A DNA stretch of 64,000 nucleotides. Origin: a virus. The stretch covers positions 1 through 64,000 of the IMG/VR virus record IMGVR_UViG_3300001681_000071; one strand, written 5' to 3'. Positions 23,648 to 51,525 of the stretch are shown in pieces. The notes beneath the pieces were generated by a model. It worked only from the letters and a program-made list of their open reading frames with translations, did no database searches and was not told where the DNA came from. A program made the translations under genes and the position numbers. How positions within the stretch are numbered: the stretch's first letter is position 1; the number at the start of each line of letters is the position of its first letter.

Positions 23648-24520
23648 ATGGAAAGGACGATAAGAATTGGCTCATTGTTTTCTGGTATTGGGGGGATTGA
23701 GCTTGGGTTAGAGTATGGTATTCAAAACTCTATAACTATTTGGCAAGTCGAGTCGAACGAATTTTGTCGCCAGGTGCTAAAGCGGCACTGGCCCAAGTCA
23801 AAAATCTATAACGATGTAAAGAAGGTAGGAAAACATAACTTAGAGCCTGTAGACATTATTTGTGGTGGCTTTCCGTGCCAAGATATTTCAATAGCCGGGA
23901 AAAGAGAGGGGATAAATGACGGTGCCAAATCGAGTCTTTGGTGGGAAATGTGGCGGGTTGTTAGCGAGCTACGACCCCGAATCGTCGTCATTGAGAATGT
24001 CTCAGCTATCACTTTTTCCGATGGCGGGGGATGGGAGTTACTACATTCCCTTGCCCAAATCGGGTACTCTTGCGAATGGATTGATTTACGAGCAAGTGAT
24101 CCCCCGTTCAACGCGCCACACGAACGAGAACGCATATTCTTTGTTGCCTACACCGACACCAGCACTGAATATGACCTCTCCTTCAATGATGAAACACCAA
24201 GGGCATCAGAACTTTCGTGCGCTATTGCCGACACCAACAACGAACGATTGCAAAAACACACCGGGCGGTGTAGCCCAATGGGAAAGGCACAGCAGCTTAA
24301 ATATAGAAGCCGCGAAGATGGCGGGACGAACAAAGACGACAATTGGAAAGGATTTCCGATTGAACCCCCGCTTTGTCGAAGAGATGATGGGATTTCCGAT
24401 AGGGTGGACAGACTTAGAGCGTTAGGGAACTCAGTTGTTCCGGCATGTAGTAGGTGGATTGGTAAGCGAATACAAGAGTCAGGTCTTTTAAGGAGAAGAG
24501 ATGCATCAACACTTCCATAA
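23648..24520 (+). CDS. DNA cytosine-C5 methyltransferase, large (alpha) chain lacking motif IX
   Basis: I SLFSGIGG, IV GGFPCQDIS, VI IENV, VIII APHERERIF, X RLRALGNSV. Confidence 0.92.
   Translation: MERTIRIGSLFSGIGGIELGLEYGIQNSITIWQVESNEFCRQVLKRHWPKSKIYNDVKKVGKHNLEPVDIICGGFPCQDISIAGKREGINDGAKSSLWWEMWRVVSELRPRIVVIENVSAITFSDGGGWELLHSLAQIGYSCEWIDLRASDPPFNAPHERERIFFVAYTDTSTEYDLSFNDETPRASELSCAIADTNNERLQKHTGRCSPMGKAQQLKYRSREDGGTNKDDNWKGFPIEPPLCRRDDGISDRVDRLRALGNSVVPACSRWIGKRIQESGLLRRRDASTLP
23916..24425 (+). CDS. nested alternative-frame ORF, putative beta chain of the C5 methyltransferase (motif IX)
   Basis: LLPTPT twice and RLNPRFVEEMMGFPIGWTD; own SD GAGGGG before ATG 23916. Confidence 0.75.
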   Translation: MTVPNRVFGGKCGGLLASYDPESSSLRMSQLSLFPMAGDGSYYIPLPKSGTLANGLIYEQVIPRSTRHTNENAYSLLPTPTPALNMTSPSMMKHQGHQNFRALLPTPTTNDCKNTPGGVAQWERHSSLNIEAAKMAGRTKTTIGKDFRLNPRFVEEMMGFPIGWTDLER

Positions 24521-25049
24521 AAATTTAAACGTTAAGAATATATTGTCACGATATAAACCATCGACAATTGTAGAACTTGGTGGGCTTAATGGAGCCAATA
24601 CTTTACAGTTACTCACGATGGGCAAAGTCATCACTATAAGTGATAATAAGATGCCCGATAAGCTCTCTCCTTTCGTTAAGAAAGGCGAACTAAAATGGAT
24701 ACAAGCACTATCGTTTAACGCTCTCAAATCATTTGCTGATGGCTCTATTGAATTCGCTAGTGTTGACACTGACCACAATTACACCACTCTAAAGTTAGAA
24801 CTTATAGAATTAAAAAGAGCAATGAAGAAAGATGGTGTTGTTGTTTTACATGATGTTGAAACCTTTAAGAATAGAAACAACCAACATTATACTCTTGAAT
24901 ATGCCAACGGAGAGCCATATAACTTTGCTCTAATGACACAAGGCCATAGCTACACAGCGGCTTTGACAGAAGAAATACAAGAGGGCGAATGGAAACTGTT
25001 GGATTGGTCAGAAGCGAGCAACGGAGCAGCGGCTATTATCAAAACTTAG
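24501..25049 (+). CDS. class I SAM-dependent methyltransferase (Methyltransf_24-like)
   Basis: IVELGGLNG, VDTDHNY, GVVVLHDV. Confidence 0.75.
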   Translation: MHQHFHKNLNVKNILSRYKPSTIVELGGLNGANTLQLLTMGKVITISDNKMPDKLSPFVKKGELKWIQALSFNALKSFADGSIEFASVDTDHNYTTLKLELIELKRAMKKDGVVVLHDVETFKNRNNQHYTLEYANGEPYNFALMTQGHSYTAALTEEIQEGEWKLLDWSEASNGAAAIIKT

Positions 25050-25050
25050 G

Positions 25051-25521
25051 TTACCTCTCCATCGCAGAGAAGCGAGGTGTTCTTCTTTTTTCATCGAAGA
25101 TCAATAGACAAGAAGGAGCCGGTGCTGAATTTGGTGCCTTTTGAAATTTGATACGTCCCCTCACAAGCCTAATTTCAGCCGCCCTCATAGCCCAATCGTG
25201 CCACCACTTGGTGTCTGTACGGGCAAATGTCAAGCAAACCACCGTACAGCCTTTGGTACTCTCCCAATACGATTTCTCAATCCATTTGCCCACTTCTCTC
25301 CCGTAAGGAGGGTTGAGCCACACTGCCTCTCCGCGAGAAATTTTATGCCATGGCAAACTCAAAGCATTCCGGGTCAGGTATAGAACACATTTATGGTTCT
25401 CAGCAGAGGCAGCAGCGTCCAATACAAAATTGAATTCATCATTGATCTTATTAAAGAAAGACCACGGAGTTCCCCAATCTTGTTTTTTGCTACTGAACAG
25501 TTTATCCTCGGACCAACTCAT
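25051..25521 (-). CDS. phage DNA N6-adenine methyltransferase
   Basis: DWGTP, F.LDAAAS..N.KC, WLNPPYG, ARTDTKWW, GRIKF. Confidence 0.9.
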   Translation of the reverse strand: MSWSEDKLFSSKKQDWGTPWSFFNKINDEFNFVLDAAASAENHKCVLYLTRNALSLPWHKISRGEAVWLNPPYGREVGKWIEKSYWESTKGCTVVCLTFARTDTKWWHDWAMRAAEIRLVRGRIKFQKAPNSAPAPSCLLIFDEKRRTPRFSAMER

Positions 25522-25522
25522 A

Positions 25523-25681
25523 TTACTCCCACTTAACTTTCAGTCCTGGTCGCCATGCTGGTTCCCATGGAAGTCTCCAATCTCTTTGTATCTCCCCTGA
25601 TTGCTTTTCCGGCTTATGTTTGGGTTCTTCCTTCTGCGCGATCTCCGCCTGAGTTACCTTTTTTTCCTTTTTCATTTTCAT
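25523..25681 (-). CDS. small hypothetical protein, not in the ORF track
   Basis: 52-aa ORF ending 1 nt before the methyltransferase start. Confidence 0.4.
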   Translation of the reverse strand: MKMKKEKKVTQAEIAQKEEPKHKPEKQSGEIQRDWRLPWEPAWRPGLKVKWE

Positions 25682-25850
25682 TCCTTATAGAGTATTTGGT
25701 TTAACCATAAATGCTCAACGCCCAGGCGATGGCCTACGCGAACTTGGCTTATTATATTTATAGGTGAAATACACCCATGCCTTTAGAGGCTGAAGTGGGG
25801 CGGAGCGTAGAATTTTCTGGGCCATAAAATATCACTGGTTTATAGATTGT

Positions 25851-26801
25851 TTAGAAGAAGTTGTCTGCGTAGTCGGCTATTATTCCAAAATCTCTGAATA
25901 GTTTGCACCTATCAAGGTCTATGCCAACAATCCTTCCATTTAATTCTGACAAGTATTCTCTGCCAAATACAGCCTGTCTTGCCCTGTAAAGCACACCAAA
26001 GCTTTCACCTGTCTGAGACACCACCTTTTGTATCCTCATGTGCATACGGTCTATGTCTCGACCCACGTAGTATCTTCCTTTCTTCAATCCATGGAAGTCA
26101 CACAGCAAACTCTCTGTTATTGCCATATCTACGCCTAATCTTGCGTATTCTGGGTACTCAACTACACTCATTGATAGCTGTTTATGTATCCATCTGGCAT
26201 ATTCTTCCAAAACAACGCTTGGCGATGAGTTTGCCATACCAGTAATGTCGCATACTCCCCTCCTTGGGCCAGAGGCTTCGTCTATTTCCATGGTGGATGG
26301 TATTACATCGAAAACGTTAACCTTATGAAACATATCGGCAGATGTATAAGCAGCCCATCTGCCATTACCCCACACAGTTCTCAGATTGTTAAGAAGTGTT
26401 TTCCAATTGTCTTCTTTGGAATTGGTAAAGTCCTTCGTAAGATATTCTTTAGCACCACCGTTCTTAGATAATTCAACCAAGCTATTTATATGTTTCGTAA
26501 CACTGGTTGTTATAAGATTTCTGCGCTGTTTGCCTATATGAAGCTTATCGTAGTCCTCTGGTATACGTGTTGGATAAGGGTAGCGGAGGAACGTATAATA
26601 GGCAGAAGCCGGATTATAGAAGGCCATATAAAGAAATGATAACCACACTGCCTGTTCTGGATCCAGCCCTTTCTGTACCTCTATTAAAAGACCATGGAAC
26701 GGATCATAGTCCTTTGTTTTCAACTGCTTTCTCGCAAAGTCGTTAAAGTAAAACCACGTATCCGACTTTTTTACGCTGTCTGGATTTATGGTAGTTATCA
26801 T
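25851..26801 (-). CDS. amino acid:DNA transferase (AADT / aGPT-Pplase2 family)
   Basis: DYDP, WLSFLYMAFY, QRR, GNGRWAAY..AD, SGPRRG, ESLLCDF..L..GRYYVGRDID. Confidence 0.8.
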   Translation of the reverse strand: MITTINPDSVKKSDTWFYFNDFARKQLKTKDYDPFHGLLIEVQKGLDPEQAVWLSFLYMAFYNPASAYYTFLRYPYPTRIPEDYDKLHIGKQRRNLITTSVTKHINSLVELSKNGGAKEYLTKDFTNSKEDNWKTLLNNLRTVWGNGRWAAYTSADMFHKVNVFDVIPSTMEIDEASGPRRGVCDITGMANSSPSVVLEEYARWIHKQLSMSVVEYPEYARLGVDMAITESLLCDFHGLKKGRYYVGRDIDRMHMRIQKVVSQTGESFGVLYRARQAVFGREYLSELNGRIVGIDLDRCKLFRDFGIIADYADNFF

Positions 26802-27703
26802 TCTTTTCCCATTGGTTCTCTACATATTGGAAGAGTTAGACAAGCAAAACCACCCCCTAATTTCCTTATCTCGTTCATTTTGCTTTTATAAACTACTATT
26901 CCATTGTCTTCTAATATAGACTCGGTTTCAGGACAGTCATCTGGCATCAAAACAGAGTTTGGCGAAAGTGTAATCCAATTCATGGATAGTTTCTCGTTGA
27001 CCTCCTTGCTCGGTTTTAGATGTATAATCTCACCCGACCACTTAAAATTCTCTGTATCACTTCTGGTAAATAATCGTGTCCCAACAATGCGGTTTCCACC
27101 AAGTAAATGTTGTGGAATAGATGGGCCGAACTTATCAACATACTGCACTATACATCGTGTCTCATGGGACCAGAATTCAATTGCCTTTTTCTGGCTTCTG
27201 CCACCACAAGCAACACTAAAGGAGCCATCATTCATTATTAAGATGTCAGAAGCCTCAACAAAACCAATCATCAGTTTCATTGGAGAAGAATAATTACACC
27301 GAAACCACTTCATAATATAGTCAGCTTCACTACTCCTATGGGCTAACCCAGAGCGTGTAACATAAATCACATCACCAACTATTTTCGCCATATCGCGAAC
27401 AAACATTGAGTCAATGCTTTTACCACTACAAGCCTCATTTATATCCAAAACCTCTACTCCCAGACCCCGTAGCTTGGAAGTTAAAGAATCGAATTCCGTC
27501 AGTAATGTGTCATGGTTTGGAAGCTTAATCCAAGATGGCGGAGGCAAAGATGGCGGAGGCAAAGATGTACGTGAAGATAGAGTCATACGTGTATGCGAAA
27601 ACACTTCTGCATGAAATTTCAGATTGGTTGGGCGATTGACCAACACCGTAAACAGGTTCCCTGTTTCGTTTGTAATAAATGCACGCTTTTTATGTCCAAT
27701 CAT
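26798..27703 (-). CDS. amidinotransferase/ADI/DDAH (pentein) family enzyme
   Basis: NETGNL..VLV.RP, MFVRD, EASD (EGGD position), His in QHLL, C-terminal GGGFACLTLPICR with the catalytic Cys. Confidence 0.82.
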   Translation of the reverse strand: MIGHKKRAFITNETGNLFTVLVNRPTNLKFHAEVFSHTRMTLSSRTSLPPPSLPPPSWIKLPNHDTLLTEFDSLTSKLRGLGVEVLDINEACSGKSIDSMFVRDMAKIVGDVIYVTRSGLAHRSSEADYIMKWFRCNYSSPMKLMIGFVEASDILIMNDGSFSVACGGRSQKKAIEFWSHETRCIVQYVDKFGPSIPQHLLGGNRIVGTRLFTRSDTENFKWSGEIIHLKPSKEVNEKLSMNWITLSPNSVLMPDDCPETESILEDNGIVVYKSKMNEIRKLGGGFACLTLPICREPMGKE

Positions 27704-28787
27704 TTGAAGTCATCGGATATAAAAGCTGTTTCATAATCGTTCGTATTCTTTCTTTTTTTGCGAAAAGTAGTATTTCCTCTTTTCTTTTGTGCCATCTATA
27801 CTTCTTAGGGGAACTTGTTGCCATAGTGAGTTTAAGATCAATCGGATGCGGGGGCTCTATACCAATGTCCCTGCAAATCGTATGAATCATTCTTTGGGGA
27901 TGGGCTACAACTTCTTCAAACTTATAAGATAATGATATATTATATTTAAGTGCCATCGAATGTGCGTTTGCCCACTGGTTCAAACAAACCTCGATCAGCC
28001 TTTTGTTTTTGTCGTCATACCAGCCTGGGTAAAGGTCAAAACACCACCAATTATAATAATTGTAATTCTTAATATTAAGCCCTCCGACCTTGTAAGCAAA
28101 AAAGGCCCTTTTGTGCAACCATCCATCCATAAGTCCATTAACAGTAGCCGCAAAAGAACGTTTGAGATGTATATATTGAATCTCGCTAACGGGGAATAGT
28201 TCTTTAAATAAGCTTGGCCTATACACATTTTGCGGTGTTTTAAAGATGATGACCTTGCCACTTAAAGACAATGGATAAGAACATGCTGTTGGCATGACAA
28301 ATGGCGGTTCTTCCAGTATCACCTTGTGTTTTTGTGCTTCGCGGTCTTCCAATTTTCCATCGTACCAACTTTGGTCTACATCTTCAAATCTTGCCGTATC
28401 CTTGCCAGGCCATTGTAGTATCTTTCTTATGTGTATAGAATTTATAAGATGAGACTCTACACTAATATGCTTGTGACAAAGTTCTCCGCGCACAAGCGTT
28501 TTCAATTCTAATATATTATCAATTTTATCTAGTCTGTTCCCGCACAAGTAATCCTCATTCACAGCATTGCCAGTTAGCTTTAAATAAGGCTCTATCTCGC
28601 CTTGTAGGCTCACTACACTTGGGCTTCTGCTCAATACATCGAATAAACAACTACTCCCACTCCTTGAGGCCGTAAGAATTACAACTACTTTCTTTGGTTC
28701 GCCTATTGGGGAGTTGAGCAGTTTTCGGATATTGTTTTTTGCTGCCCCTATTTGATGATCATTCGGTTTCAACAATAGTTCTGGCAT
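27690..28787 (-). CDS. PAPS-dependent sulfotransferase family protein
   Basis: 5'-PSB loop ILTASRSGSSCL..VL..SP, KTP, IHLKR, FEEVVAHP...I..IC..IG. Confidence 0.8.
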   Translation of the reverse strand: MPELLLKPNDHQIGAAKNNIRKLLNSPIGEPKKVVVILTASRSGSSCLFDVLSRSPSVVSLQGEIEPYLKLTGNAVNEDYLCGNRLDKIDNILELKTLVRGELCHKHISVESHLINSIHIRKILQWPGKDTARFEDVDQSWYDGKLEDREAQKHKVILEEPPFVMPTACSYPLSLSGKVIIFKTPQNVYRPSLFKELFPVSEIQYIHLKRSFAATVNGLMDGWLHKRAFFAYKVGGLNIKNYNYYNWWCFDLYPGWYDDKNKRLIEVCLNQWANAHSMALKYNISLSYKFEEVVAHPQRMIHTICRDIGIEPPHPIDLKLTMATSSPKKYRWHKRKEEILLFAKKERIRTIMKQLLYPMTSNDWT

Positions 28788-29313
28788 TTGTATTGATCCA
28801 ATCTATTACTATCTCTGAAAGGGCTTTGGGGCTTTGCTTGCCATCTAAAATCAAACGGTCTCTATTCTTAAACATGTTAAAAAAGTTCTTTGCCTTTGTC
28901 TCCCTTCCCTTTAACCAATTTGCATTTTGATTGGACCCACGTTCTTTCCTACGTTCCACAAGAACATCATTTGGCAAATCTATCAATATACAAAAGCACC
29001 CGTCAGCGAATTCATTAACATATTCAAGACAGTATTTTGTAGAGAACCTATCGCCATCAAATATGGTGACAGAGTATTTTTCATTAGCCAGAAGAAAGCT
29101 ACTCCAATACTGCAAAGACTCTTTGAAGGCATTGTATGGAACGGTATCGCCACCATCGAACGTCTTCCCCAAGTAATGACCAGACAGTATGATGTTGTTT
29201 GTAAGGGTCCACTTTGGCTTAACTACAAACTCTGTATCGAATGGGTCAATATAGTTTCTTAGCATGGTTGTTTTTCCACAACCAGGAGAACCAACAACCC
29301 AAACTCCTATCAC
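28759..29313 (-). CDS. P-loop nucleotide kinase of base-hypermodification clusters (5-hydroxymethylpyrimidine DNA kinase-like)
   Basis: GSPGCGKTT, G.Y..KTFDGGD, DGDRF, RRKERGSNQ..NWLKGRETK. Confidence 0.78.
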   Translation of the reverse strand: MIGVWVVGSPGCGKTTMLRNYIDPFDTEFVVKPKWTLTNNIILSGHYLGKTFDGGDTVPYNAFKESLQYWSSFLLANEKYSVTIFDGDRFSTKYCLEYVNEFADGCFCILIDLPNDVLVERRKERGSNQNANWLKGRETKAKNFFNMFKNRDRLILDGKQSPKALSEIVIDWINTNARTIVETE

Positions 29314-30230
29314 AATGACTCCAGCTTTCTGGTGTTGTATTTCTTGGCCCTTTTAAGCTCCTCTTCTGGGGATAAGCAGCCAAGGATACGGTTTCTAAGA
29401 TACATAACTACGCTAACTCGATACCAATCCTTATTCTTTTTTCCTTCGGCTTTTGGAGGAATATTGCCGTGCCATACAGCAGGGTTAAAAAGTATAAAAT
29501 CGCCATGCCGCATATTTACAGCCAAGCTAAATTCTGGAAGGACCAATTCAAATCCAGAATAATCTCCGTGTCTCATGGCAAACATGCAACCAAAACCTTC
29601 TTTAAGGTCGCCACTGTCTTGATGATAAGCAGCACACACCGTATTATTGACGGAGATTGTTGAAAATGGTGTGCCAGGTACTACCCAAGCTGGATGAGCT
29701 TTGTTTGCAAATTCTGTTTGTATCTCATGGAAGTTTGGCAGCAAAGACTTATAGATCCGCGAACACTTCCGCAAGTGTTTGGCAATTTTTGCCCATTCCT
29801 CTGGGTGGTCGCGTGTATACGTTGTTGCTCTACAATATGGGAAGCGACCTCCAACGCTCTCATAAAATCCACCTATAGAGCTGTAGACGGAGACCATTCT
29901 GCCATTTTCATCTAATGATCTCTCTGATTTAGATAATGTGCCATCCTTTTTGATTACCCGACTTTGCTTGTATCCGGCATATGCCGCCCTTGCATCTGAT
30001 GGGTATCTCATAAATTCCCTATATGGCTTTCTCACTTCTTCCAGTTCTTCGTCAGTGAAACATCCACGCCTCATAAGTATAATGGGTATACCATTGCTGC
30101 TATATACATCACAATTGCCGTCTATTATTAGACCATAATGGTTAGGTCTTGGATGGGTAGATTTCCAAGGCTCTATCTTTTCAGCCGATACTTTCGACCT
30201 TACCACTATCTTCATTGTTTTCATTATCAT
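29310..30230 (-). CDS. TET/JBP-family 2OG-Fe(II) dioxygenase
   Basis: PFSTISVN, HQD (HxD), GDL..GFG, WHGN (distal His), RVSVVMYLR (2OG-binding Arg); phage-type YCRAT region. Confidence 0.88.
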   Translation of the reverse strand: MIMKTMKIVVRSKVSAEKIEPWKSTHPRPNHYGLIIDGNCDVYSSNGIPIILMRRGCFTDEELEEVRKPYREFMRYPSDARAAYAGYKQSRVIKKDGTLSKSERSLDENGRMVSVYSSIGGFYESVGGRFPYCRATTYTRDHPEEWAKIAKHLRKCSRIYKSLLPNFHEIQTEFANKAHPAWVVPGTPFSTISVNNTVCAAYHQDSGDLKEGFGCMFAMRHGDYSGFELVLPEFSLAVNMRHGDFILFNPAVWHGNIPPKAEGKKNKDWYRVSVVMYLRNRILGCLSPEEELKRAKKYNTRKLESL

Positions 30231-30963
30231 CACCACCAAGACGCTTGTACTCTGCCATTACCGCTTCATAAACTGTATCTGGCATATTATCCGTGTCATA
30301 TGCGTATGATAACGACTTACAAGCCATCTTGAATTTTTGGCACTTCTCGTTTTCAAATATAAGCTGAATCATTCTGGAAGTAGAAATAGTTGGATTATCT
30401 ATCGTGATTACATCTTCGGCAATTGCGTCTTCATCTCCAGAATCCCAGACATTAGTAACGGTAGAATTTTCTGTTCTTCCACCAGCACCAGCATTGGCAT
30501 CATTGCCACTATACTTTTCATCGGGAGGAGCAAAGAAGTCTAAGGAGTCGTCTATTCCCCCAAAGGAATTGATCAAATCATCCATTTCACTACCAGTGAA
30601 GCCAAGCATCGTTGGATCAAAATCTGCAAGTTTGGCTAACTCTTCTAAGTGGTGTGCAAGCATAGCCTCATCCCATCCGGACAGTTCTCCAGAACGATTG
30701 AGCCTAATAGATAATTTTCTTGCTACCTCATCGGATACGTCCAAATAAACTATATTTGTTGTTTCGTATCCGAGTTCCTTTAAAACCTTTAGCCTTGCAT
30801 TCCCAGCAATAACCATTTGGGTTGTTTTCTGAACAATTAACGGCTCTACCTGCCCATGATCTTCAATGCTATCTCGTATAGCTGCATAGTTTTGTTCATT
30901 GTGTTTTCTTGGGTTTTGCGGATCATAGACAAGTAAATCAACTTCAACTTCGGCATATTCCAT
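30181..30963 (-). CDS. ParB/Srx N-terminal domain protein
   Basis: PQNPRKH...IRDSIEDHGQVEPLIV...IAGNARL...LNR..ELSGWD. Confidence 0.85.
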   Translation of the reverse strand: MEYAEVEVDLLVYDPQNPRKHNEQNYAAIRDSIEDHGQVEPLIVQKTTQMVIAGNARLKVLKELGYETTNIVYLDVSDEVARKLSIRLNRSGELSGWDEAMLAHHLEELAKLADFDPTMLGFTGSEMDDLINSFGGIDDSLDFFAPPDEKYSGNDANAGAGGRTENSTVTNVWDSGDEDAIAEDVITIDNPTISTSRMIQLIFENEKCQKFKMACKSLSYAYDTDNMPDTVYEAVMAEYKRLGGDDNENNEDSGKVESIG

Positions 30964-30972
30964 CTTTAAACC

Positions 30973-31239
30973 TCACAAGTTTCTAATTATCATATATGCT
31001 AATTCCGAGATCAACACGAATAGAAATACAAGTATTATCCTGGGATAGAACAAATAATCAGAATTTTCTTCTTCGGGAGGTGGAGACATAATCAATAAAA
31101 GGTAAGGGGTATCATTATCGGAAACAGGGACAGATGAAATTATCATCCATTTCTTTTCTAATAAAGACAAAAGCTGTGGTTGGTTTATAGACTGTTCCAA
31201 ATTCAACAGGTCTATCCTAATTATAGCGTTGGTAGCCAA
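30973..31239 (-). CDS. small membrane protein
   Basis: C-terminal hydrophobic helix; SD GGAGG before TTG. Confidence 0.6.
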   Translation of the reverse strand: MATNAIIRIDLLNLEQSINQPQLLSLLEKKWMIISSVPVSDNDTPYLLLIMSPPPEEENSDYLFYPRIILVFLFVLISELAYMIIRNL

Positions 31240-31286
31240 TAGTGACCTCCATGACTTACTGAATTAGTATAACTACTTATTATTTT

Positions 31287-31532
31287 TTATCCACTTTTTG
31301 GGTATACAGCCGTACAATCCTTCCCAATACAAAACATTCGATGCTGTCCTTCTGCATCTAATACTATCCATCTCTCTGTATGTATACTATGTCGCATAGT
31401 CTCATCAATGCACAGTTTCATAGCATCATCAAGCGATGATGAAGGAACCACAGTGTATAAAGATCCTTTCTTGATTGTAAGATACTTCCCTTTGTTGTTG
31501 AACAAACAGTCTTTTATGATTTCATACTTCAT
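31287..31532 (-). CDS. hypothetical protein
   Basis: 81-aa ORF in the operon. Confidence 0.65.
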   Translation of the reverse strand: MKYEIIKDCLFNNKGKYLTIKKGSLYTVVPSSSLDDAMKLCIDETMRHSIHTERWIVLDAEGQHRMFCIGKDCTAVYPKSG

Positions 31533-31540
31533 GTGCCACC

Positions 31541-33457
31541 CTACTTTGGTATAACGACCCTTGCGTTTCTCTTACCGGCTGGCGTTAAATTCCAACTATC
31601 AGCATAGATACAGGCCAATGGATCAAAAGCCATTACACAGTGAGAGCCAGCCTTTCCAAACTCACTTCTAACTTTATCAAGGTATACAACTGTTGATGGT
31701 TTAGAGTCTTCGCTTTTTATAGGCAGTCGCTGAACAACAATCCCAACGTGAGCATCTTGTCTAATCGCACTTGCTCCCTTTAGGTCAGTTATCTTCACCC
31801 TGCGTTGCTGACTAACGGACAGATTATTAGGATGGCAAACGAGAACAATCGTTATATTGTCATTGATAGCAATAGTAGCCAATCGTCTGACTGTACTTTC
31901 TATAGCTAACCTCTCATCCATATTGCTTTCTGGTTTCGTTAAGAACCCAAGGTGATCTATTAAAGCTATCTTTAGATCGTGTCTGCGAACAGAATATCGG
32001 ATAGTTGAAATTACCTTCTCAACATCGAGTTCTCCATAGTGGTCTAAAATCATAATGGGCAACTTGCCAAGTTCTTCACACGCAATACGCCTTTGTGCCT
32101 CGGAATGTCTTGTGAAGTCATTGCCTAATTGATGGCGCAATAATTTCTGCACTGTTCCTATTGGCCTTTGTTCAAACGATGTAAGCAGAACCGGAACACC
32201 ACGTAATGCCTGTTCCCACATCAACCATGTAGCCCATGTGGTTTTACCGTGTCCAGTATCCCCCGTAACCACCCATAAGCCGGGTCTGATACCTCCAAAT
32301 ATGGCATCCAACTTTTGACTTCCCATAGGCAAACCAGCAAGACTCTGTGGATTTTTTATGAGTTCTTCTATGTCATCGCTATAGCTATCAACATTGCGAA
32401 GTGTTGCCTCAAAGTAATCCTCATAGTTCGATAATATGTCTCCTATTGTGGATGCTTTTGCCTTTTGTTGTAATGCTTCGCCAGGGTCATTATACTGCTT
32501 ACTTCTTATGCGGAAACAACGAAATTTCCCAAGTTTAGAGGCCAATTTCTCAGACCCTTCATCACCTGCTTTATCGTTGTCATACCAGAGATAGAACCCC
32601 TGATAAGGCTCCATAGAATCGAGCCATTGGGTACACCAGTTTGCGCTCGCTCCAGTTGTGCCAGAAACCACTGTAGAACCGTATCCATACGTCCTAAGAG
32701 CCAATACATCAAGTTCTCCTTCTGTCACTATTACAAACTTACTTTTATCTTCCGATAACTGATCGAAGCCGTATAAAGGCATTGGCCTTGAAGGACAGAC
32801 TCTATAGGTTTTCATATCTGGAGGTACAGACCTAAACCTCATGTTAACTATCTTCCCAAATCGGTCCTTCAACGGTATAACGAGCCAATTCTTTCCCCTT
32901 GACTTCATATATCCTAAATTAGCATCACGAATAACGCTTTCACTTATACGCCTAGTCTCTATTAGATAGTCAAGTACAGGTTTTCCTTCATTGCTAAATA
33001 AGTTACCAGCATAAATATCTGGCAATTTTTCATCCCAGCGAAAGATGCTTGAACCTGACGGGTCGGGTGGAGATGTAAACTCTTTTCTTACCGTATTATC
33101 AAGCAAACCGTCTATCGTTACAATCTTCTCTTTTGCCTTTTCTAAAGAAAATCCATTCTCTAGCGCCCAATTTAGTACCTTTTTCTTCTGACCTGGCCCA
33201 GAAGACCTGTATAGGTTTCCAACAACCTTACACGACACTAAGTCCGTCATGCTTCCGTGTGATTTACAAACATGACAACACCAGCCACTACCATTGGACG
33301 TTACTCCAATTGGGAATCTGCCATCCTCACTTCCTCTTTTCATTGCACGACATTTTGGGCATGGACCCCAACTTCCGGCCTTTCCTGATTTTAGGCCAAT
33401 TTTAGGCCCAATCTTAACTATACCAGCCTTGTTCATAATCTCAAACGCAGTCATCAT
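31541..33457 (-). CDS. DNA primase-helicase (T7 gp4/Twinkle-like)
   Basis: Zn finger CPKC...CHVC; TOPRIM EGELD and DNDKAG; SF4 helicase GDTGHGKTT, IDHL, DLKGASAIRQDA. Confidence 0.93.
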   Translation of the reverse strand: MMTAFEIMNKAGIVKIGPKIGLKSGKAGSWGPCPKCRAMKRGSEDGRFPIGVTSNGSGWCCHVCKSHGSMTDLVSCKVVGNLYRSSGPGQKKKVLNWALENGFSLEKAKEKIVTIDGLLDNTVRKEFTSPPDPSGSSIFRWDEKLPDIYAGNLFSNEGKPVLDYLIETRRISESVIRDANLGYMKSRGKNWLVIPLKDRFGKIVNMRFRSVPPDMKTYRVCPSRPMPLYGFDQLSEDKSKFVIVTEGELDVLALRTYGYGSTVVSGTTGASANWCTQWLDSMEPYQGFYLWYDNDKAGDEGSEKLASKLGKFRCFRIRSKQYNDPGEALQQKAKASTIGDILSNYEDYFEATLRNVDSYSDDIEELIKNPQSLAGLPMGSQKLDAIFGGIRPGLWVVTGDTGHGKTTWATWLMWEQALRGVPVLLTSFEQRPIGTVQKLLRHQLGNDFTRHSEAQRRIACEELGKLPIMILDHYGELDVEKVISTIRYSVRRHDLKIALIDHLGFLTKPESNMDERLAIESTVRRLATIAINDNITIVLVCHPNNLSVSQQRRVKITDLKGASAIRQDAHVGIVVQRLPIKSEDSKPSTVVYLDKVRSEFGKAGSHCVMAFDPLACIYADSWNLTPAGKRNARVVIPK

Positions 33458-38052: not shown

Positions 38053-38604
38053 TCATACTATATCCAAACTTACATCCGAAATGACTTCATCACCCCAACA
38101 ATCCCAACCATCAACTCTTCTTCTTGCGAACAATTCTATTTTGTTTTGAACAGGGAACATATCCTCTATCCTTTGACGTACTTCTTCCGGCTTCTGGCTG
38201 TGTTTTGTGCGCTTTGAGTATACATACTGCCTTGCGTTCCTTATGCCTCTTGGTTGCGGAATACGCCCCCTTTTACCCAGCAAACAGAGTTCGCACTGAG
38301 ACATTGTGTAAAATCCTGGGTTTACTCTTACTTTATCCCACACAAAACCGACTGTAGCCCACTTGAAACCCCAAGACCTCATAAGGTCTACCGCTTGGTC
38401 TAAATGCGGGTTAGTTGTCCACATGAATAGCAAACAATCATCGTCACAGATAGAAGTAACATTAAGACGTTTAAGGTCTTTGAGCTTTATGGTCGAATAA
38501 TGAGAGATAGCTCCTCCGGTATCTATCCCACCTTCACCGTTATGTTGTTTTTGTCCTTTGTAATCCCATGGTGGGTCCACATAAATGACTTGGTACTTTT
38601 TCAT
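38053..38604 (-). CDS. MT-A70 family adenine methyltransferase
   Basis: YQVIYVDPPW, LFMWTT, WGF, E.CLLG.RG, HSQKP, KIELFAR. Confidence 0.9.
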   Translation of the reverse strand: MKKYQVIYVDPPWDYKGQKQHNGEGGIDTGGAISHYSTIKLKDLKRLNVTSICDDDCLLFMWTTNPHLDQAVDLMRSWGFKWATVGFVWDKVRVNPGFYTMSQCELCLLGKRGRIPQPRGIRNARQYVYSKRTKHSQKPEEVRQRIEDMFPVQNKIELFARRRVDGWDCWGDEVISDVSLDIV

Positions 38605-45839: not shown

Positions 45840-47510
45840 CTATGCTATACGGTCATACAACAACCACATCCTCAAACCTATAACAAGCCTACCACGTTGA
45901 TACTCAATCTTCTCTATTGTGGATTTAATCTCGGAAAGACCTAATTTTTCGTCAGTAATCTTTACATTATCTCCCAATTGAACCATAAACATCAATGCCG
46001 GAGATCCTTCGTATTCTACATAATAAGATGGAAGACTAAAATGAGATGCCAGCCAATCAGCAACGTATTGGGCGGTAGCATCATCATGGATAATCACACT
46101 TTCTAACGGTTCTCTTTCTCTAAGACCCAATCGGCTTTCTGAAATTTTGCAAAACACATTGTTCGATGAATTGACCGTTATAATCTTTTCATGGTTATTG
46201 GTAATACCGTTAAATGAATATTTCAGAACATATGAATTGTAAATGTCTTCTTTAGAGGACTCTTGTACGGAAGAGGCCCTATCATACAAGAGATTTTGTC
46301 CAACTATCAGTTCCTCAACATACACAGGGCTACTTCTATTTGTAAATACAGGCCCATAACCACGACCACTGTAGGCCATACTAATCATTGGAAAACTACT
46401 ACATATTGTGGACTCGATATAATCTATCGCTGTAGCTATATCGTTCTCTCCGCTGGCGTTTATCAGCAATTGTGCCAGTAATGTCGGACATTTCGTCTTG
46501 GCTCTTGAAAAAAGGTTCTCGTCTACACCAACAGGGCCATATAAAGTCATTGTCCGTATAATATCTTCTATTAATTCAATAACAATTCTCTCTGACCCAT
46601 CAGAGCGTTCAACATAAACGTAGACCGATACATCTTTGTAGTAGCTATGGCTTTGGTTTAGAATGCTAACTTCCAGATACTTTATTCCATTAGCCGAGAA
46701 AGCATCACTAACAGTTACGATATTGAGAACCTGTGGAAGCTCTTCTCCATCAACAAAAACAGTCGTTACTCGATGTTGGTGCCCTAAACAAACAACAAAT
46801 TTATGTTGATACGAGCCAGTTGATAGGTCTTCTCTAAGAACACCAATACATGGCACACCAGAAGTATTTCTGTCCATTACAATTGGGAATCTAAACCCAA
46901 TGGAATCTTCTGGTATTGATGCTCCTTTAGTATAATTTCCGAAGGAATTTTCGTCACAGATGTATTGTGGCTGGATCTTATCAAATGTTATCTTTGGATC
47001 AATAACATCAAATTCCAATGGCTCATCACTTGTGCCAAAGACCACACCACCAGACATATCTCCTTTCAACAAAACGTAACGAGACTCATATTCTCCATCT
47101 GGTATTTGCAAACTTATCTCAGCAAACCCAGTTATTAAATCACCACCAAGAACAACCGCCATTGGATCAAGCGTCCTGGCATCAATACTAACAACAAAAG
47201 AACGCTGAGATGCAGCACCAGAACCCAATGTGTAGGAAGAGCTTATGGTTGGCTCTGCTATGAGCTTAGGCGCATAATAGTGACTTTTTGAGTTCTTATC
47301 TATCGTTGAAATGCTATCGGTTGCGACTGAAATTCTATGACCGTTCCCGAAAACAAAATCCATAGTCATGACAACATTGGTCATGCCGGGGTCTTTCGTT
47401 ATAATATCTAACCAATAAGAATTGATGACATTTACTGAAAAAACACGATTAAACACAATAGATCGCAAGTCTCTAAAACTATAGACCCCACCAGCACTAG
47501 TAACCGTCAT
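45840..47510 (-). CDS. putative tail tip/hub protein
   Basis: Downstream of the tape measure; C-terminal LGD.V.I.D..LG...IE.I hub-like signature. Confidence 0.6.
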   Translation of the reverse strand: MTVTSAGGVYSFRDLRSIVFNRVFSVNVINSYWLDIITKDPGMTNVVMTMDFVFGNGHRISVATDSISTIDKNSKSHYYAPKLIAEPTISSSYTLGSGAASQRSFVVSIDARTLDPMAVVLGGDLITGFAEISLQIPDGEYESRYVLLKGDMSGGVVFGTSDEPLEFDVIDPKITFDKIQPQYICDENSFGNYTKGASIPEDSIGFRFPIVMDRNTSGVPCIGVLREDLSTGSYQHKFVVCLGHQHRVTTVFVDGEELPQVLNIVTVSDAFSANGIKYLEVSILNQSHSYYKDVSVYVYVERSDGSERIVIELIEDIIRTMTLYGPVGVDENLFSRAKTKCPTLLAQLLINASGENDIATAIDYIESTICSSFPMISMAYSGRGYGPVFTNRSSPVYVEELIVGQNLLYDRASSVQESSKEDIYNSYVLKYSFNGITNNHEKIITVNSSNNVFCKISESRLGLREREPLESVIIHDDATAQYVADWLASHFSLPSYYVEYEGSPALMFMVQLGDNVKITDEKLGLSEIKSTIEKIEYQRGRLVIGLRMWLLYDRIA

Positions 47511-51523: not shown

Positions 51524-51525
51524 TA

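What the first reader, a model, noticed from the sequence alone, without database searches (positions are those of the whole stretch)
25851..30963. Six-gene post-replicative DNA hypermodification operon with unusual tailoring enzymes
Seen: six overlapping minus-strand genes in the order ParB-like, TET/JBP, P-loop kinase, sulfotransferase, pentein, AADT. Established: in phages such as ViI, M6 and PaMx11, a 5-hmdU DNA kinase activates the hydroxymethyl base. An amino acid:DNA transferase then installs an amino acid, which is tailored by PLP decarboxylase, radical SAM, flavin lyase or acetyltransferase enzymes. Those phages make hmU at the nucleotide level. Inference: here the hydroxymethyl base is made directly on DNA by TET/JBP (no dUMP/dCMP hydroxymethylase in this window). 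The tailoring slots are filled by a sulfotransferase and a guanidino-modifying enzyme. This predicts a new base, for example an amidinated/citrullinyl and/or sulfated aminoacyl-pyrimidine. I know of no characterised pathway with this combination.
Basis: partly seen in the sequence, partly recalled or inferred. Interest (0 to 1): 0.92.

Follow-up and report, generated by a model that had tools for sequence, protein, structure and literature searches.

The report
Phage thymine-modification operon with sulfotransferase
A complete 79-kb uncultured phage carries the published enzyme set that rebuilds thymine in finished DNA, joined to a conserved sulfate-adding enzyme and an arginine-cleaving enzyme that no studied phage has, so its DNA probably carries an undescribed, possibly sulfated, base.

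Summary
Six tightly packed minus-strand genes at 25851-30963 encode ParB_N, Tet_JBP, P-loop kinase PF18751, Sulfotransfer_3, a pentein and AADT PF18724, each above its Pfam cut-off.

The ParB / T-dioxygenase / kinase / AADT backbone is already published (Lee 2021, PMC8989533; O'Toole 2026, PMC13229309). That part is not new.

What is new is the sulfotransferase-pentein pair.
- The two genes lie together in 18 of 21 viral records, in three architectures whose hydroxymethyl source is either TET or a thymidylate-synthase-like enzyme.
- A complete relative (G007) keeps all six genes at 34-45% identity.
- A closer relative of G007 (L116) keeps ParB-TET but has a different cassette in the same slot.
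- No GenBank phage record has a homologue of either gene, and I found no paper on them.

The pentein is closest to DDAH and keeps its catalytic and arginine-binding residues. The sulfotransferase fold and its PAPS loop are confirmed. Bacterial relatives of the sulfotransferase sit next to an arginase-family gene.

My best reading is T to 5-hmU to 5-phosphomethyl-U, then a nitrogen adduct whose nitrogen comes from arginine, then sulfonation. The chemistry is inferred, not shown.

This scan noted a similar AADT / sulfotransferase / guanidino-enzyme trio earlier on other DNA (e1-5746059).

The parts
30181..30963 (-). ParB-like protein (260 aa), the predicted activator of the adjacent T-dioxygenase
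   Evidence: Pfam ParB_N at 32.9 bits, residues 4-86. PHROG ParB-like families at E 2e-35. 43% identical to the ParB next to the TET in G007. ParB is found next to TET in 67 of 80 related loci. The activator role is taken from PMC13229309 and is inferred here.
29310..30239 (-). TET/JBP-family Fe(II)/2OG 5-methylpyrimidine dioxygenase (309 aa), predicted to convert thymine to 5-hmU on DNA
   Evidence: Pfam Tet_JBP at 76.2 bits. H206-x-D208, H257 (WHGN motif) and R274 are conserved with the G007 homologue. The HxD aligns with that of human TET2. The genome has no thymidylate-synthase-family gene.
28759..29313 (-). P-loop kinase (184 aa), predicted 5-hmdU DNA kinase that makes 5-phosphomethyl-dU
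   Evidence: Pfam Ploopntkinase3 (PF18751) at 29.1 bits against a cut-off of 27. This is the family used to annotate ParB-dependent 5mYOX clusters. A Walker A GxxGxGKT is present. APS_kinase is not among its Pfam matches at E<=0.1. Distantly related to the P-loop kinase just upstream of the sulfotransferase in type C loci (hhalign probability 87.6%).
27690..28787 (-). PAPS-type sulfotransferase (365 aa), a predicted tailoring enzyme
   Evidence: Pfam Sulfotransfer_3 at 27.1 bits. 162 homologues. AF2 pLDDT 87.5 and pTM 0.90. The best Foldseek matches are CurM ST, TPST, OLS ST, Stf1 and 3-OST. The profile matches the CurM and OLS sulfotransferases at E 2e-7. The S-R42-S-G44-S45 loop, which lacks a Walker lysine, plus E64, K183, R190 and R210 are invariant in 30 sequences.
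26798..27703 (-). DDAH-like pentein (301 aa), a guanidino-group hydrolase or transferase acting on an arginine-type substrate
   Evidence: Pfam ADI. AF2 pLDDT 84. VIA Z 31-27 to ADI, SxtG/AGAT, ArgZ and DDAH. The profile matches PaDDAH at E 2.6e-31. D104, R123, E150, R169, H199 and C288 are invariant in 16 sequences. They align with PaDDAH D66, R85, E114, R132, H162 and C249.
25851..26801 (-). Amino acid:DNA transferase (316 aa); its start overlaps the pentein stop (ATGA)
   Evidence: Pfam ADDT (PF18724) at 71.4 bits and aGPT-Pplase3 at 32.1 bits. The profile matches solved AADTs: 25qc_A at E 5e-9 and PaMx11 gp46 (8z2m) at E 2e-4. D33, R93, E230 and C234 are invariant. These resemble the D24, R94, E243 and C247 site of gp46 described in PMC11472151.

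Best explanation
The six genes form one post-replicative thymidine-hypermodification pathway in a tailed phage.

Steps that rest on published relatives, inferred for this locus:
- The ParB-like protein activates the TET/JBP dioxygenase, which hydroxylates the C5-methyl of selected thymines in finished phage DNA to give 5-hmdU.
- The P-loop kinase phosphorylates it to 5-phosphomethyl-dU.
- The AADT displaces the phosphate with a nitrogen nucleophile.

Steps that are my inference:
- The DDAH-like pentein supplies or unmasks that nitrogen from L-arginine. It could hydrolyse free arginine to feed ammonia to the translationally coupled AADT, taking the place that a glutamine amidotransferase holds in sister clusters. 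Alternatively it could trim an arginyl adduct on the base.
- The PAPS-dependent sulfotransferase then caps the exposed amine, ureido or hydroxyl group with sulfate.
- The end product would be a new anionic thymine derivative. My leading guess is an N-sulfonated 5-aminomethyl-uracil or a sulfated arginine-derived side chain.
- It presumably shields phage DNA from host nucleases.

Odds:
- All six genes serve one thymine-modification pathway: about 0.75.
- The order 'nitrogen from arginine, then sulfonation': about 0.35.
- Any single named product: at most 0.2.
For: Families and folds of all six proteins are confirmed.

No other hydroxymethyl source.
- The complete genome has no thymidylate-synthase-family gene.

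The backbone matches a published class.
- ParB-dependent T-dioxygenases are consistently linked with P-loop kinases (PF18751) and AADTs (PF18724) (PMC13229309 and preprint).
- Lee 2021 noted TET_JBP in place of dUMP hydroxymethylase next to kinase and AADT.
- In the 80 nearest TET loci, ParB is adjacent in 67, and kinase plus AADT are present in 27.

The sulfotransferase-pentein pair belongs to thymine hypermodification.
- It occurs together in 18 of 21 viral records.
- Those records carry TET (G000, G007, G020), or TS-like enzymes with bona fide 5-hmdU DNA kinase domains and AADT, or TS-like enzymes with a P-loop kinase.
- A pentein-seeded scan returns the same contigs.
- G007 keeps all six genes at 34-45% identity.
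- L116 keeps ParB (80% identical) and TET (76%) but holds a glycosyltransferase-like / APH / HAD cassette in the same slot.

Arginine as the pentein's substrate.
- The family is closest to DDAH (E 2.6e-31).
- It keeps the catalytic Cys/His/Glu and both carboxylate-binding arginines.
- Enzymes that act on free arginine score Z 27-31, while agmatine and peptidyl-arginine deiminases score about Z 21.

Sulfation is real in this group.
- Two related phages encode an APS kinase at E 1e-73, and some bacterial loci do too.

The sulfotransferase is habitually paired with a guanidino enzyme.
- In 60 of 80 bacterial loci the next gene is an arginase-family hydrolase.

GATase and pentein look like alternatives.
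- GATase_7 lies next to TET in 11 of 26 TET-kinase-AADT records that lack the sulfotransferase.
- It is absent from all 5 records that carry the sulfotransferase-pentein pair.
Against: - No chemistry was observed. Every step at this locus is inferred from homology and gene context.
- Ten jumbo-like records carry kinase-sulfotransferase-pentein but have no recognisable AADT. The pair therefore does not strictly need an AADT.
- Two records have sulfotransferase plus AADT without a pentein.
- Residues well beyond the PAPS site are invariant between the phage sulfotransferases and the bacterial ones, which lie in no DNA-modification context. This fits a small free acceptor as well as a DNA-tethered one.
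- The closest solved sulfotransferases (CurM and OLS) use sulfate as a leaving group, not as a final decoration.
- The GATase/pentein exclusion is not significant (about 0.09 by my hypergeometric arithmetic).
- The sulfotransferase's Pfam score is marginal, and its structural matches have modest TM-scores of 0.44-0.55.
- A C5-cytosine methyltransferase lies 1.3 kb from the operon's end.
Confidence: 0.55

Rival explanations
1. The sulfotransferase is an activating enzyme, as in CurM. It sulfates 5-hmU, or a side-chain hydroxyl, to create a good leaving group. The group is then displaced by a nitrogen nucleophile that the pentein delivers as ammonia or an amidino/guanidino group. The final base would carry no sulfate; 5-aminomethyl- or 5-guanidinomethyl-uracil are examples.
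For: The nearest solved relatives by sequence and by fold are the CurM and OLS sulfotransferases, which sulfate a hydroxyl for elimination. Type C loci have kinase-sulfotransferase-pentein but no AADT, so a route from activation to displacement without an AADT must exist there. The pentein fold equally fits amidinotransferases (Z 28 to SxtG and AGAT).
Against: The window already has a PF18751 kinase and an AADT for activation and displacement, so a second activator would be redundant. By profile, the pentein is much nearer to the DDAH and ADI hydrolases (E 1e-31 to 1e-20) than to amidinotransferases (E 3e-11 or weaker). The similarity to CurM ST is weak and lies mainly in the PAPS-binding segments.
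Confidence: 0.15
2. The sulfotransferase and the pentein act on a free small molecule, not on DNA. They would make an unusual arginine-derived, sulfated donor that the AADT then installs, or they would be auxiliary metabolic genes that remodel host arginine or sulfur pools.
For: About 50 positions are invariant or nearly so between the phage sulfotransferases and the bacterial ones, which have no AADT, TET or kinase nearby. The pentein keeps the residues that bind the free alpha-carboxylate of arginine in DDAH. Type C loci sit among nucleotide-metabolism genes and have no AADT.
Against: The pair is found only inside base-modification clusters in viruses. It is exchanged together with the kinase and AADT as one block. 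All characterised tailoring steps after AADT transfer act on DNA (PMC8989533). A pure auxiliary-metabolism role would not explain the strict linkage to hmU-generating enzymes.
Confidence: 0.12
3. The dioxygenase works on 5-methylcytosine written by the phage's own C5-methyltransferase (23648-24520). The pathway would then decorate cytosine (5hmC to 5-phosphomethyl-C to adduct) rather than thymine.
For: A C5-cytosine methyltransferase (Pfam E 4e-41) lies 1.3 kb beyond the AADT on the opposite strand. Phage 5mC dioxygenases that co-occur with C5-MTs are documented (Burke 2021, PMC8256090, listed). The characterised phage T-dioxygenases also oxidise some 5mC (abstract of PMC13229309).
Against: The complete relative G007 has the same six genes and no C5-MT. 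Neither do G009, G020, G017 or G013. The methyltransferase is convergently transcribed within a cluster of other methylases, Methyltransf_24 and Dam. ParB-associated 5mYOXs are the T-dioxygenase subclass. In other phages the same sulfotransferase-pentein-AADT module pairs with 5-hmdU DNA kinase domains and TS-like enzymes.
Confidence: 0.08
4. The sulfotransferase and the pentein modify proteins or another non-DNA target, for example tyrosine sulfation or arginine deimination of phage or host proteins. On this view they sit in the operon only by genomic accident.
For: Tyrosylprotein sulfotransferases are among the structural matches, and peptidyl-arginine deiminases share the pentein fold.
Against: PADs score far below the enzymes that act on free arginine (Z 21 against 27-31). 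The linkage to hmU-generating and hmU-activating genes recurs in three unrelated architectures. The block is swapped together with the kinase and AADT.
Confidence: 0.03

Closest known systems
ParB-dependent phage T-dioxygenase (5mYOX clade C1) gene clusters (O'Toole et al., PNAS 2026, PMC13229309; preprint 10.1101/2025.08.14.668559)
   Same: A ParB homologue lies next to a Tet_JBP dioxygenase, followed by a PF18751 P-loop kinase and a PF18724 AADT. No hydroxymethylase is present. The pathway is post-replicative: T to 5-hmU, then hypermodification.
   Different: The published clusters are described with glutamine amidotransferases, glycosyltransferases, O-methyltransferases and similar enzymes. 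Neither text mentions a sulfotransferase or a pentein. Here no GATase is present, and a sulfotransferase-pentein pair sits between the kinase and the AADT. Only 1 of the 80 nearest TET loci shares this.
Thymidine hypermodification pathways of phages M6, ViI, PaMx11, PhiW-14 and SP10 (Lee et al. 2018; 2021, PMC8989533)
   Same: The logic of activating 5-hmdU with a DNA kinase and then displacing the phosphate with an AADT, followed by tailoring on DNA. PaMx11 offers the nearest parallel to my proposed order: install a nitrogen carrier, cleave it to 5-aminomethyl-dU, then cap the amine, there by acetylation.
   Different: Those phages make 5-hmdU before replication with a dUMP hydroxymethylase. 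They tailor with PLP decarboxylase, radical SAM, flavin lyase or acetyltransferase enzymes. None has a homologue of this sulfotransferase or pentein; tblastn found no match in 50,697 phage records.
Phage TET 5mC-dioxygenase pathways that yield glycosylated 5hmC (Burke et al. 2021, PMC8256090)
   Same: A phage-encoded Tet_JBP enzyme creates a hydroxymethyl handle on finished DNA for further decoration.
   Different: Those enzymes depend on an adjacent C5-MT and feed glycosyltransferases. Here a ParB partner, a kinase and an AADT point to thymine, and the relative G007 lacks any C5-MT.
Dimethylarginine dimethylaminohydrolase (DDAH) and arginine deiminase, hydrolases of the pentein superfamily
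   Same: The fold (Z 27-31). The Cys/His/Glu triad. The Asp that binds the guanidino group. Both arginines that hold the substrate's alpha-carboxylate. The His motif reads H-L-L, like H-L-K in DDAH and without the Asp at +2 that ADI and AGAT have.
   Different: It scores far below the NCBIfam equivalog cut-offs (43.7 bits against 340). It belongs to mainly viral clusters. It is always encoded next to a sulfotransferase inside DNA-modification clusters. Its substrate is unknown.
CurM / OLS 'activating' sulfotransferases and other Sulfotransfer_3 enzymes
   Same: The PAPS-sulfotransferase fold, a 5'-phosphosulfate-binding RSGS(S/T) loop, and a conserved Glu about 22 residues downstream.
   Different: About 13% identity and TM-scores of 0.44-0.55. 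There are large insertions. It is a stand-alone protein, not a PKS domain. The acceptor is unknown.
Earlier finding of this scan, e1-5746059 (another genome): AADT + sulfotransferase + guanidino hydrolase trio in a jumbo phage
   Same: The same three enzyme classes are linked in a thymidine-hypermodification context and were judged conserved in several phages.
   Different: It is a different genome and architecture. Here the hydroxymethyl source is ParB-TET rather than a nucleotide-level enzyme. I did not compare the sequences directly.

Membership tests
ParB-dependent 5mYOX (T-dioxygenase) hypermodification cluster | Tet_JBP dioxygenase with the Fe(II)/2OG ligands (HxD...H, Arg) | tested here: met
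   Pfam at 76.2 bits. H206-x-D208, H257 and R274 are conserved with the G007 homologue. The HxD aligns with that of TET2.
ParB-dependent 5mYOX (T-dioxygenase) hypermodification cluster | ParB homologue encoded next to the dioxygenase | tested here: met
   A ParB_N protein lies directly upstream, with overlapping ORFs. The same pairing occurs in 67 of the 80 nearest TET loci.
ParB-dependent 5mYOX (T-dioxygenase) hypermodification cluster | No neighbouring C5-cytosine methyltransferase | tested here: inconclusive
   A C5-MT lies at 23648-24520 on the other strand, 4.8 kb from the TET gene. The six-gene relative G007 and four other module-bearing records have none.
ParB-dependent 5mYOX (T-dioxygenase) hypermodification cluster | Placement in clade C1 of the published tree; ParB-dependent oxidation of T | not testable with these tools
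   The reference 5mYOX sequences and supplementary data are not held. Activity needs an experiment.
Thymidine hypermodification by 5-hmdU DNA kinase plus AADT | P-loop DNA-base kinase | tested here: met
   PF18751 at 29.1 bits against a cut-off of 27. Walker A is present. APS_kinase is not among the matches. The substrate was not tested.
Thymidine hypermodification by 5-hmdU DNA kinase plus AADT | Amino acid:DNA transferase with the conserved active-site residues | tested here: met
   PF18724 at 71.4 bits. The profile matches solved AADTs at E 5e-9 and 2e-4. D33, R93, E230 and C234 are invariant, compared with D24, R94, E243 and C247 of gp46. The residue correspondence is by motif, not by structural superposition.
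Thymidine hypermodification by 5-hmdU DNA kinase plus AADT | A source of 5-hmU | tested here: met
   TET is present, and no TS-family gene occurs in the complete genome.
PAPS-dependent sulfotransferase (Sulfotransfer_3 clan) | Sulfotransferase fold | tested here: met
   AF2 pLDDT 87.5. The top 30 or so Foldseek matches are sulfotransferases, the best being CurM ST at E 2e-5 and TM 0.44/0.55.
PAPS-dependent sulfotransferase (Sulfotransfer_3 clan) | 5'-phosphosulfate-binding loop (no Walker lysine) | tested here: met
   S41-R42-S-G44-S45-S46 is invariant or nearly so in 30 sequences, and aligns with RSGST of the CurM and OLS sulfotransferases.
PAPS-dependent sulfotransferase (Sulfotransfer_3 clan) | 3'-phosphate-binding motif (R...S) and a catalytic base | tested here: inconclusive
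   R210 and N217-G218 are invariant, but the canonical Ser spacing is not matched. E64 is invariant and sits where CurM-type sulfotransferases have their Glu base; that position is from memory.
PAPS-dependent sulfotransferase (Sulfotransfer_3 clan) | Use of PAPS | not testable with these tools
   Indirect only. APS kinase genes occur in two related phages and in some bacterial loci.
Pentein / guanidino-group-modifying enzyme superfamily, DDAH-like branch | Five-fold beta/alpha propeller fold | tested here: met
   AF2 pLDDT 84. Foldseek E 1e-15 to 1e-12. VIA Z 27-31, rmsd 2.2-2.9 A over 240-280 residues.
Pentein / guanidino-group-modifying enzyme superfamily, DDAH-like branch | Catalytic Cys, His and acidic residue | tested here: met
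   C288, H199 and E150 are invariant in 16 family members, and align with C249, H162 and E114 of PaDDAH.
Pentein / guanidino-group-modifying enzyme superfamily, DDAH-like branch | Equivalence to DDAH, ADI or ArgZ (same reaction) | tested here: not met
   The NCBIfam equivalog models score 14-44 bits against cut-offs of 300-1025. It is a separate family, and whether it is a hydrolase or a transferase is unresolved.

The most novel reading that the evidence does not exclude
These phages, and roughly fifteen other uncultured lineages that carry the same sulfotransferase-pentein module, put a covalently sulfonated, arginine-derived group on thymine. It could be a sulfamate on 5-aminomethyl-uracil or a sulfated ureido or amino side chain. 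To my knowledge that would be the first sulfate-bearing nucleobase in any genome. It would be made by a new enzymatic logic in which a DDAH-like enzyme draws nitrogen from arginine for DNA modification.
Probability: 0.35. Interest if true: 0.9.

Novelty: new variant of a known kind. Interest (0 to 1): 0.8.

Why it matters
All known thymidine hypermodifications end in neutral or cationic groups: aminoethyl, aminoethoxymethyl, putrescinyl, glutamyl and acetylaminomethyl. A sulfated or sulfamated base would add a strongly anionic decoration to DNA. That has consequences for restriction, CRISPR and other nuclease defences, for DNA packaging, and for sequencing chemistry.

The module is compact: four genes behind a ParB/TET pair. 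It works on ordinary thymine in finished DNA, so it can be tested directly by heterologous expression.

It would add two enzyme classes to the toolbox for site-selective DNA derivatisation: a PAPS sulfotransferase, and a DDAH-like pentein acting as nitrogen donor or trimmer.

The work also gives a testable function to a family of several hundred viral pentein proteins and to a sulfotransferase family found in 227 bacterial species, always beside a guanidino-group hydrolase.

Tried and rejected
Searches that found nothing or could not run:
- blastn of the operon against GenBank phages: no match.
- Single-sequence pattern scans of viral contigs with the sulfotransferase and the pentein, and with the first small pentein alignment: no relatives. 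Broader alignments were needed.
- The 16-sequence pentein alignment was too diverse for the locus scan.
- Search for longer, fused forms of the sulfotransferase: none found, which the tool rates as weak evidence.
- Promoter and terminator scan of 24400-31700: no more sites than in shuffled sequence, so transcription-unit borders are not defined.
- The supplementary tables of PMC13229309 are not held, and Iyer et al. 2013 (the source of the aGPT-Pplase and kinase families) is not held. I could not check whether either lists sulfotransferase or pentein neighbours.
- No pentein, AADT, TET, kinase or TS gene lies near the bacterial sulfotransferase homologues. I therefore dropped the idea that the bacterial loci are prophage copies of the module.

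Ideas considered and rejected:
- That the P-loop kinase is an APS kinase serving the sulfotransferase. APS_kinase is not among its Pfam matches at E<=0.1, whereas PF18751 is.
- That the operon depends on the neighbouring C5-methyltransferase. I judged this unlikely but kept it as a rival.
- Deciding between hydrolase and amidinotransferase from fold scores alone. This is not possible, because Z values are within 4 units across both classes.

Full report
WHAT IS THERE

The window is the first 64 kb of a 79,172-bp IMG/VR virus record that CheckV rates 100% complete. It is a tailed phage. It has tail-fibre and virion proteins, a primase-helicase, an AAA_24 ATPase and a PD-(D/E)XK exonuclease.

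At 25851-30963 six minus-strand ORFs overlap at every junction. Pfam assigns them, in transcription order, to ParB_N, Tet_JBP, Ploopntkinase3 (PF18751), Sulfotransfer_3, ADI (pentein) and ADDT (PF18724). All are above the curated cut-offs, two of them only just.

SECURING THE TWO WEAK FAMILY CALLS

Sulfotransferase:
- It has 162 homologues, nearly all pre-annotated PF13469.
- An AF2 model built on 30 sequences has pLDDT 87.5 and pTM 0.90.
- Its best Foldseek matches are all PAPS sulfotransferases: CurM ST, an Alicyclobacillus ST, TPST, OLS ST, Stf1, 3-OST, Stf0 and NST. E-values (from 2e-5) and TM-scores are modest.
- A family profile matches the CurM and OLS sulfotransferases at E 2e-7 through the RSGS(S/T) phosphosulfate loop and a C-terminal segment.
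- That loop lacks a Walker lysine. Together with E64, K183, R190, R210 and about 45 other positions, it is invariant or nearly so across the phage and bacterial members.

Pentein:
- The AF2 model has pLDDT 84.
- VIA-align gives Z 31-29 to arginine deiminases, 28 to SxtG and AGAT, 27.6 to ArgZ and 27 to DDAH. Agmatine and peptidyl-arginine deiminases reach only about 21.
- The 16-member family profile matches P. aeruginosa DDAH at E 2.6e-31 over nearly its whole length. That is ahead of ADI (2.5e-20), human DDAH-1 (1.6e-19), ArgZ (6e-14) and AGAT (3e-11).
- D104, R123, E150, R169, H199 and C288 are invariant. They align with D66, R85, E114, R132, H162 and C249 of that DDAH.
- In my recollection of the DDAH literature these are the guanidino-binding Asp, the two alpha-carboxylate-binding arginines and the catalytic triad.
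- The His motif reads H-L-L, as DDAH reads H-L-K. It lacks the Asp at +2 that ADI and AGAT use for an unsubstituted guanidino nitrogen.
- NCBIfam equivalog models are missed by a wide margin. This is a distinct, mainly viral family and not a DDAH orthologue.

AADT, kinase and dioxygenase:
- The AADT profile matches two solved AADTs. It keeps the D, R and E-x3-C residues described for PaMx11 gp46.
- The kinase has a Walker A motif, and APS_kinase is not among its Pfam matches at E<=0.1.
- The dioxygenase keeps HxD...H and the 2OG arginine.

WHAT IS ALREADY KNOWN

Lee et al. (PMC8989533) showed the sequence 5-hmdU DNA kinase, then AADT, then tailoring. In metavirome contigs they noted TET_JBP proteins replacing the dUMP hydroxymethylase beside such genes.

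O'Toole et al. (PMC13229309) showed experimentally that phage 5mYOXs oxidise thymine after replication and that one subclass needs an adjacent ParB. [quoted passage not shown] The preprint names PF18751 and PF18724 as the annotating models.

The backbone of this operon is therefore a member of a published class. Neither paper, nor any paper in the searchable library, links a sulfotransferase or a pentein to DNA hypermodification.

THE NEW PART: A CONSERVED SULFOTRANSFERASE-PENTEIN MODULE

An alignment-seeded scan of IMG/VR found 20 further viral records with a relative of the sulfotransferase. The pentein is present in 18 of the 21 records and usually directly follows the sulfotransferase. Of the other three, one is a 4.8-kb fragment and two are incomplete genomes that carry sulfotransferase plus AADT only. 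A scan seeded instead with penteins returned 11 loci. Ten lie on the same contigs, and the eleventh is cut off exactly where the sulfotransferase would lie.

Three architectures emerge.
- (A) ParB-TET-kinase-SULT-pentein-AADT. This is the window and G007, a complete 79-kb phage with all six genes in the same order at 34-45% identity. G009 is a fragment of the same kind. G020 has the genes in another order.
- (B) Thymidylate-synthase-like enzyme, 5-hmdU DNA kinase domains (PF18723, E 1e-48 to 1e-65; PF18748, a weak sub-threshold match) and AADT, with SULT and pentein in three of the five lineages.
- (C) Jumbo-like phages with two TS-like genes, a P-loop kinase, SULT, pentein, an APH-family kinase and a dUTPase, but no recognisable AADT. 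The P-loop kinase there has no Pfam match but is related to the window's kinase (hhalign probability 87.6%).

In every record with enough sequence to judge, the pair travels with an enzyme that makes a hydroxymethyl pyrimidine and, in most, with a kinase that can activate it.

A TET-seeded scan gave the converse view.
- Of the 80 nearest TET loci, 67 have the ParB and 27 have kinase plus AADT.
- Only G007 has the sulfotransferase and pentein, so the window is a rare variant of a common system.
- L116 is a close relative of G007, with ParB 80%, TET 76% and primase-helicase 82% identical, and with conserved flanks.
- L116 holds a different cassette in the same slot: a weak TET-associated glycosyltransferase match, an APH kinase and a HAD protein.
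- The kinase-SULT-pentein-AADT block therefore behaves as one exchangeable unit downstream of a fixed hydroxymethyl generator.

No homologue of the sulfotransferase or the pentein exists in 50,697 GenBank phage records. The AADT has about 30%-identical relatives in 17 actinophage records.

THYMINE OR 5-METHYLCYTOSINE?

A C5-cytosine methyltransferase lies 1.3 kb beyond the operon on the other strand, next to a Methyltransf_24 gene and a Dam gene. This could in principle feed the TET.

Against that:
- G007 and four other module-bearing records have no C5-MT.
- ParB-linked 5mYOXs are the thymine subclass.
- The same module elsewhere pairs with 5-hmdU kinase domains.

I put the 5mC reading at about 0.08.

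HOW THE PAIR MIGHT WORK (INFERENCE)

Four observations guide me.
- First, the pentein looks like an enzyme for an L-arginine-type substrate with a free carboxylate, and it is nearest to the hydrolases.
- Second, bacterial relatives of the sulfotransferase occur in 227 species, mostly Burkholderiales. They have none of the phage partners nearby. In 60 of 80 loci, however, they are followed by an arginase-family hydrolase. A HemK-like methyltransferase often precedes them, and an APS kinase and a flavin N-oxygenase sometimes accompany them. In cells and in viruses alike, this sulfotransferase sits beside an enzyme that cleaves a guanidino group.
- Third, 11 of 26 sister TET-kinase-AADT records have a small GATase next to the TET. 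None of five records with the pentein has one, and three of those are complete genomes. By my arithmetic the one-sided probability is about 0.09, so this is only suggestive.
- Fourth, the pentein stop overlaps the AADT start.

Together these suggest that the pentein provides nitrogen from arginine. One route is ammonia passed to the AADT, as a GATase would supply it from glutamine. The other is DDAH-type cleavage of an arginyl adduct, which would leave an amine on the base. The sulfotransferase would then sulfonate the exposed group. This parallels PaMx11, where glycine is installed, cleaved to 5-aminomethyl-dU and then acetylated.

Two type C phages encode their own APS kinase (E 1e-73), which argues that PAPS-dependent sulfation really occurs in this group.

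The main rival takes the nearest solved sulfotransferases at face value. CurM and OLS sulfate a hydroxyl to make it leave, and type C loci lack an AADT, so sulfate may be an activating group and not the final decoration.

A second rival is that both enzymes work on a free metabolite. The deep conservation between the phage and bacterial sulfotransferases fits that.

A midpoint-rooted tree shows three deep viral clades, with the bacterial sequences as one tight clade beside type C. I draw no direction of transfer from it.

LIMITS

- No chemistry, expression or virion DNA was examined.
- The supplementary data of the key paper and Iyer et al. 2013 were not available.
- Many viral records are fragments, so absences are weak evidence.
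- Several of the 21 records are near-duplicates. I count roughly 16 distinct lineages.

VERDICT

The backbone is known. The sulfotransferase-pentein tailoring module is, as far as the held literature shows, undescribed. It is conserved and mobile, and it is confined to uncultured phages. Earlier work in this scan (e1-5746059, e1-5966515) noted sulfotransferases in thymidine-hypermodification clusters on other DNA, so this is a recurring theme and not a one-off.

I rate it a new variant of a known kind, with high interest, because the predicted product class (a sulfonated DNA base) is unprecedented and can be tested directly.

Noticed in passing
window 23648-25521 and 38053-38604: A cluster of DNA methyltransferases lies at the convergence point of the two transcription directions: a C5-cytosine MTase (290 aa, whose Pfam match covers only model positions 2-201 of 324), Methyltransf_24 (24501-25049, +) and a Dam-type N6-A MTase (25051-25521, -). 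An MT-A70 MTase lies further upstream. An earlier first-reader note (e1-6066201) proposes that the nested ORF 23916-24425 supplies the missing C-terminal motifs of the C5-MTase. I did not test that.
   Followed up: partly
L002, L004-L007, L009, L011, L012, L017 (viral contigs): This is the 'type C' architecture in jumbo-like phages: TS-like a, P-loop kinase, sulfotransferase, pentein, TS-like b, APH-family kinase and dUTPase, set among RNR, guanylate-kinase-like and helicase genes. No AADT is recognisable anywhere in those records. Two of them (G010, G011) encode an APS kinase. Which enzyme attaches the side chain there is unexplained.
   Followed up: partly
L022-L101 (bacterial genome contigs), e.g. 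L024:9234-12027: 227 bacterial species, mainly Oxalobacteraceae and Comamonadaceae with a few CPR and archaeal MAGs, carry a ~412-aa homologue of the sulfotransferase. In 60 of 80 loci an arginase-family gene follows it. In 37 a HemK/PrmC-like methyltransferase precedes it. An APS kinase, a flavin N-oxygenase and two-component sensors sometimes accompany it. The pathway appears to be uncharacterised.
   Followed up: partly
L116:8891-11543: A close relative of G007 keeps ParB-TET but follows it with a TET-associated-glycosyltransferase-like protein (weak match, E 4e-4), an APH-family phosphotransferase and a HAD-domain protein. This is a different, also uncharacterised, tailoring cassette in the same slot.
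   Followed up: partly
window 25522-25675 (-): A small lysine-rich ORF of about 50 codons sits between the AADT and the Dam gene, and its stop abuts the Dam start (TAATATG). I did no homology search for it.
   Followed up: no
window 47510-57474 (-): Two very large adjacent ORFs (1337 aa and 1982 aa) lie downstream of the tail-fibre genes. The 1337-aa protein has no PHROG match at E<=1e-5. The 1982-aa protein was not searched.
   Followed up: no
protein P0036 (named by NCBI as a Sphaerospermopsis kisseleviana MAG protein) and P0004, P0011: These 'cellular' sulfotransferase hits group tightly with type C viral sequences in the tree. They probably come from phage contigs binned into MAGs and are probably not bacterial genes.
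   Followed up: no
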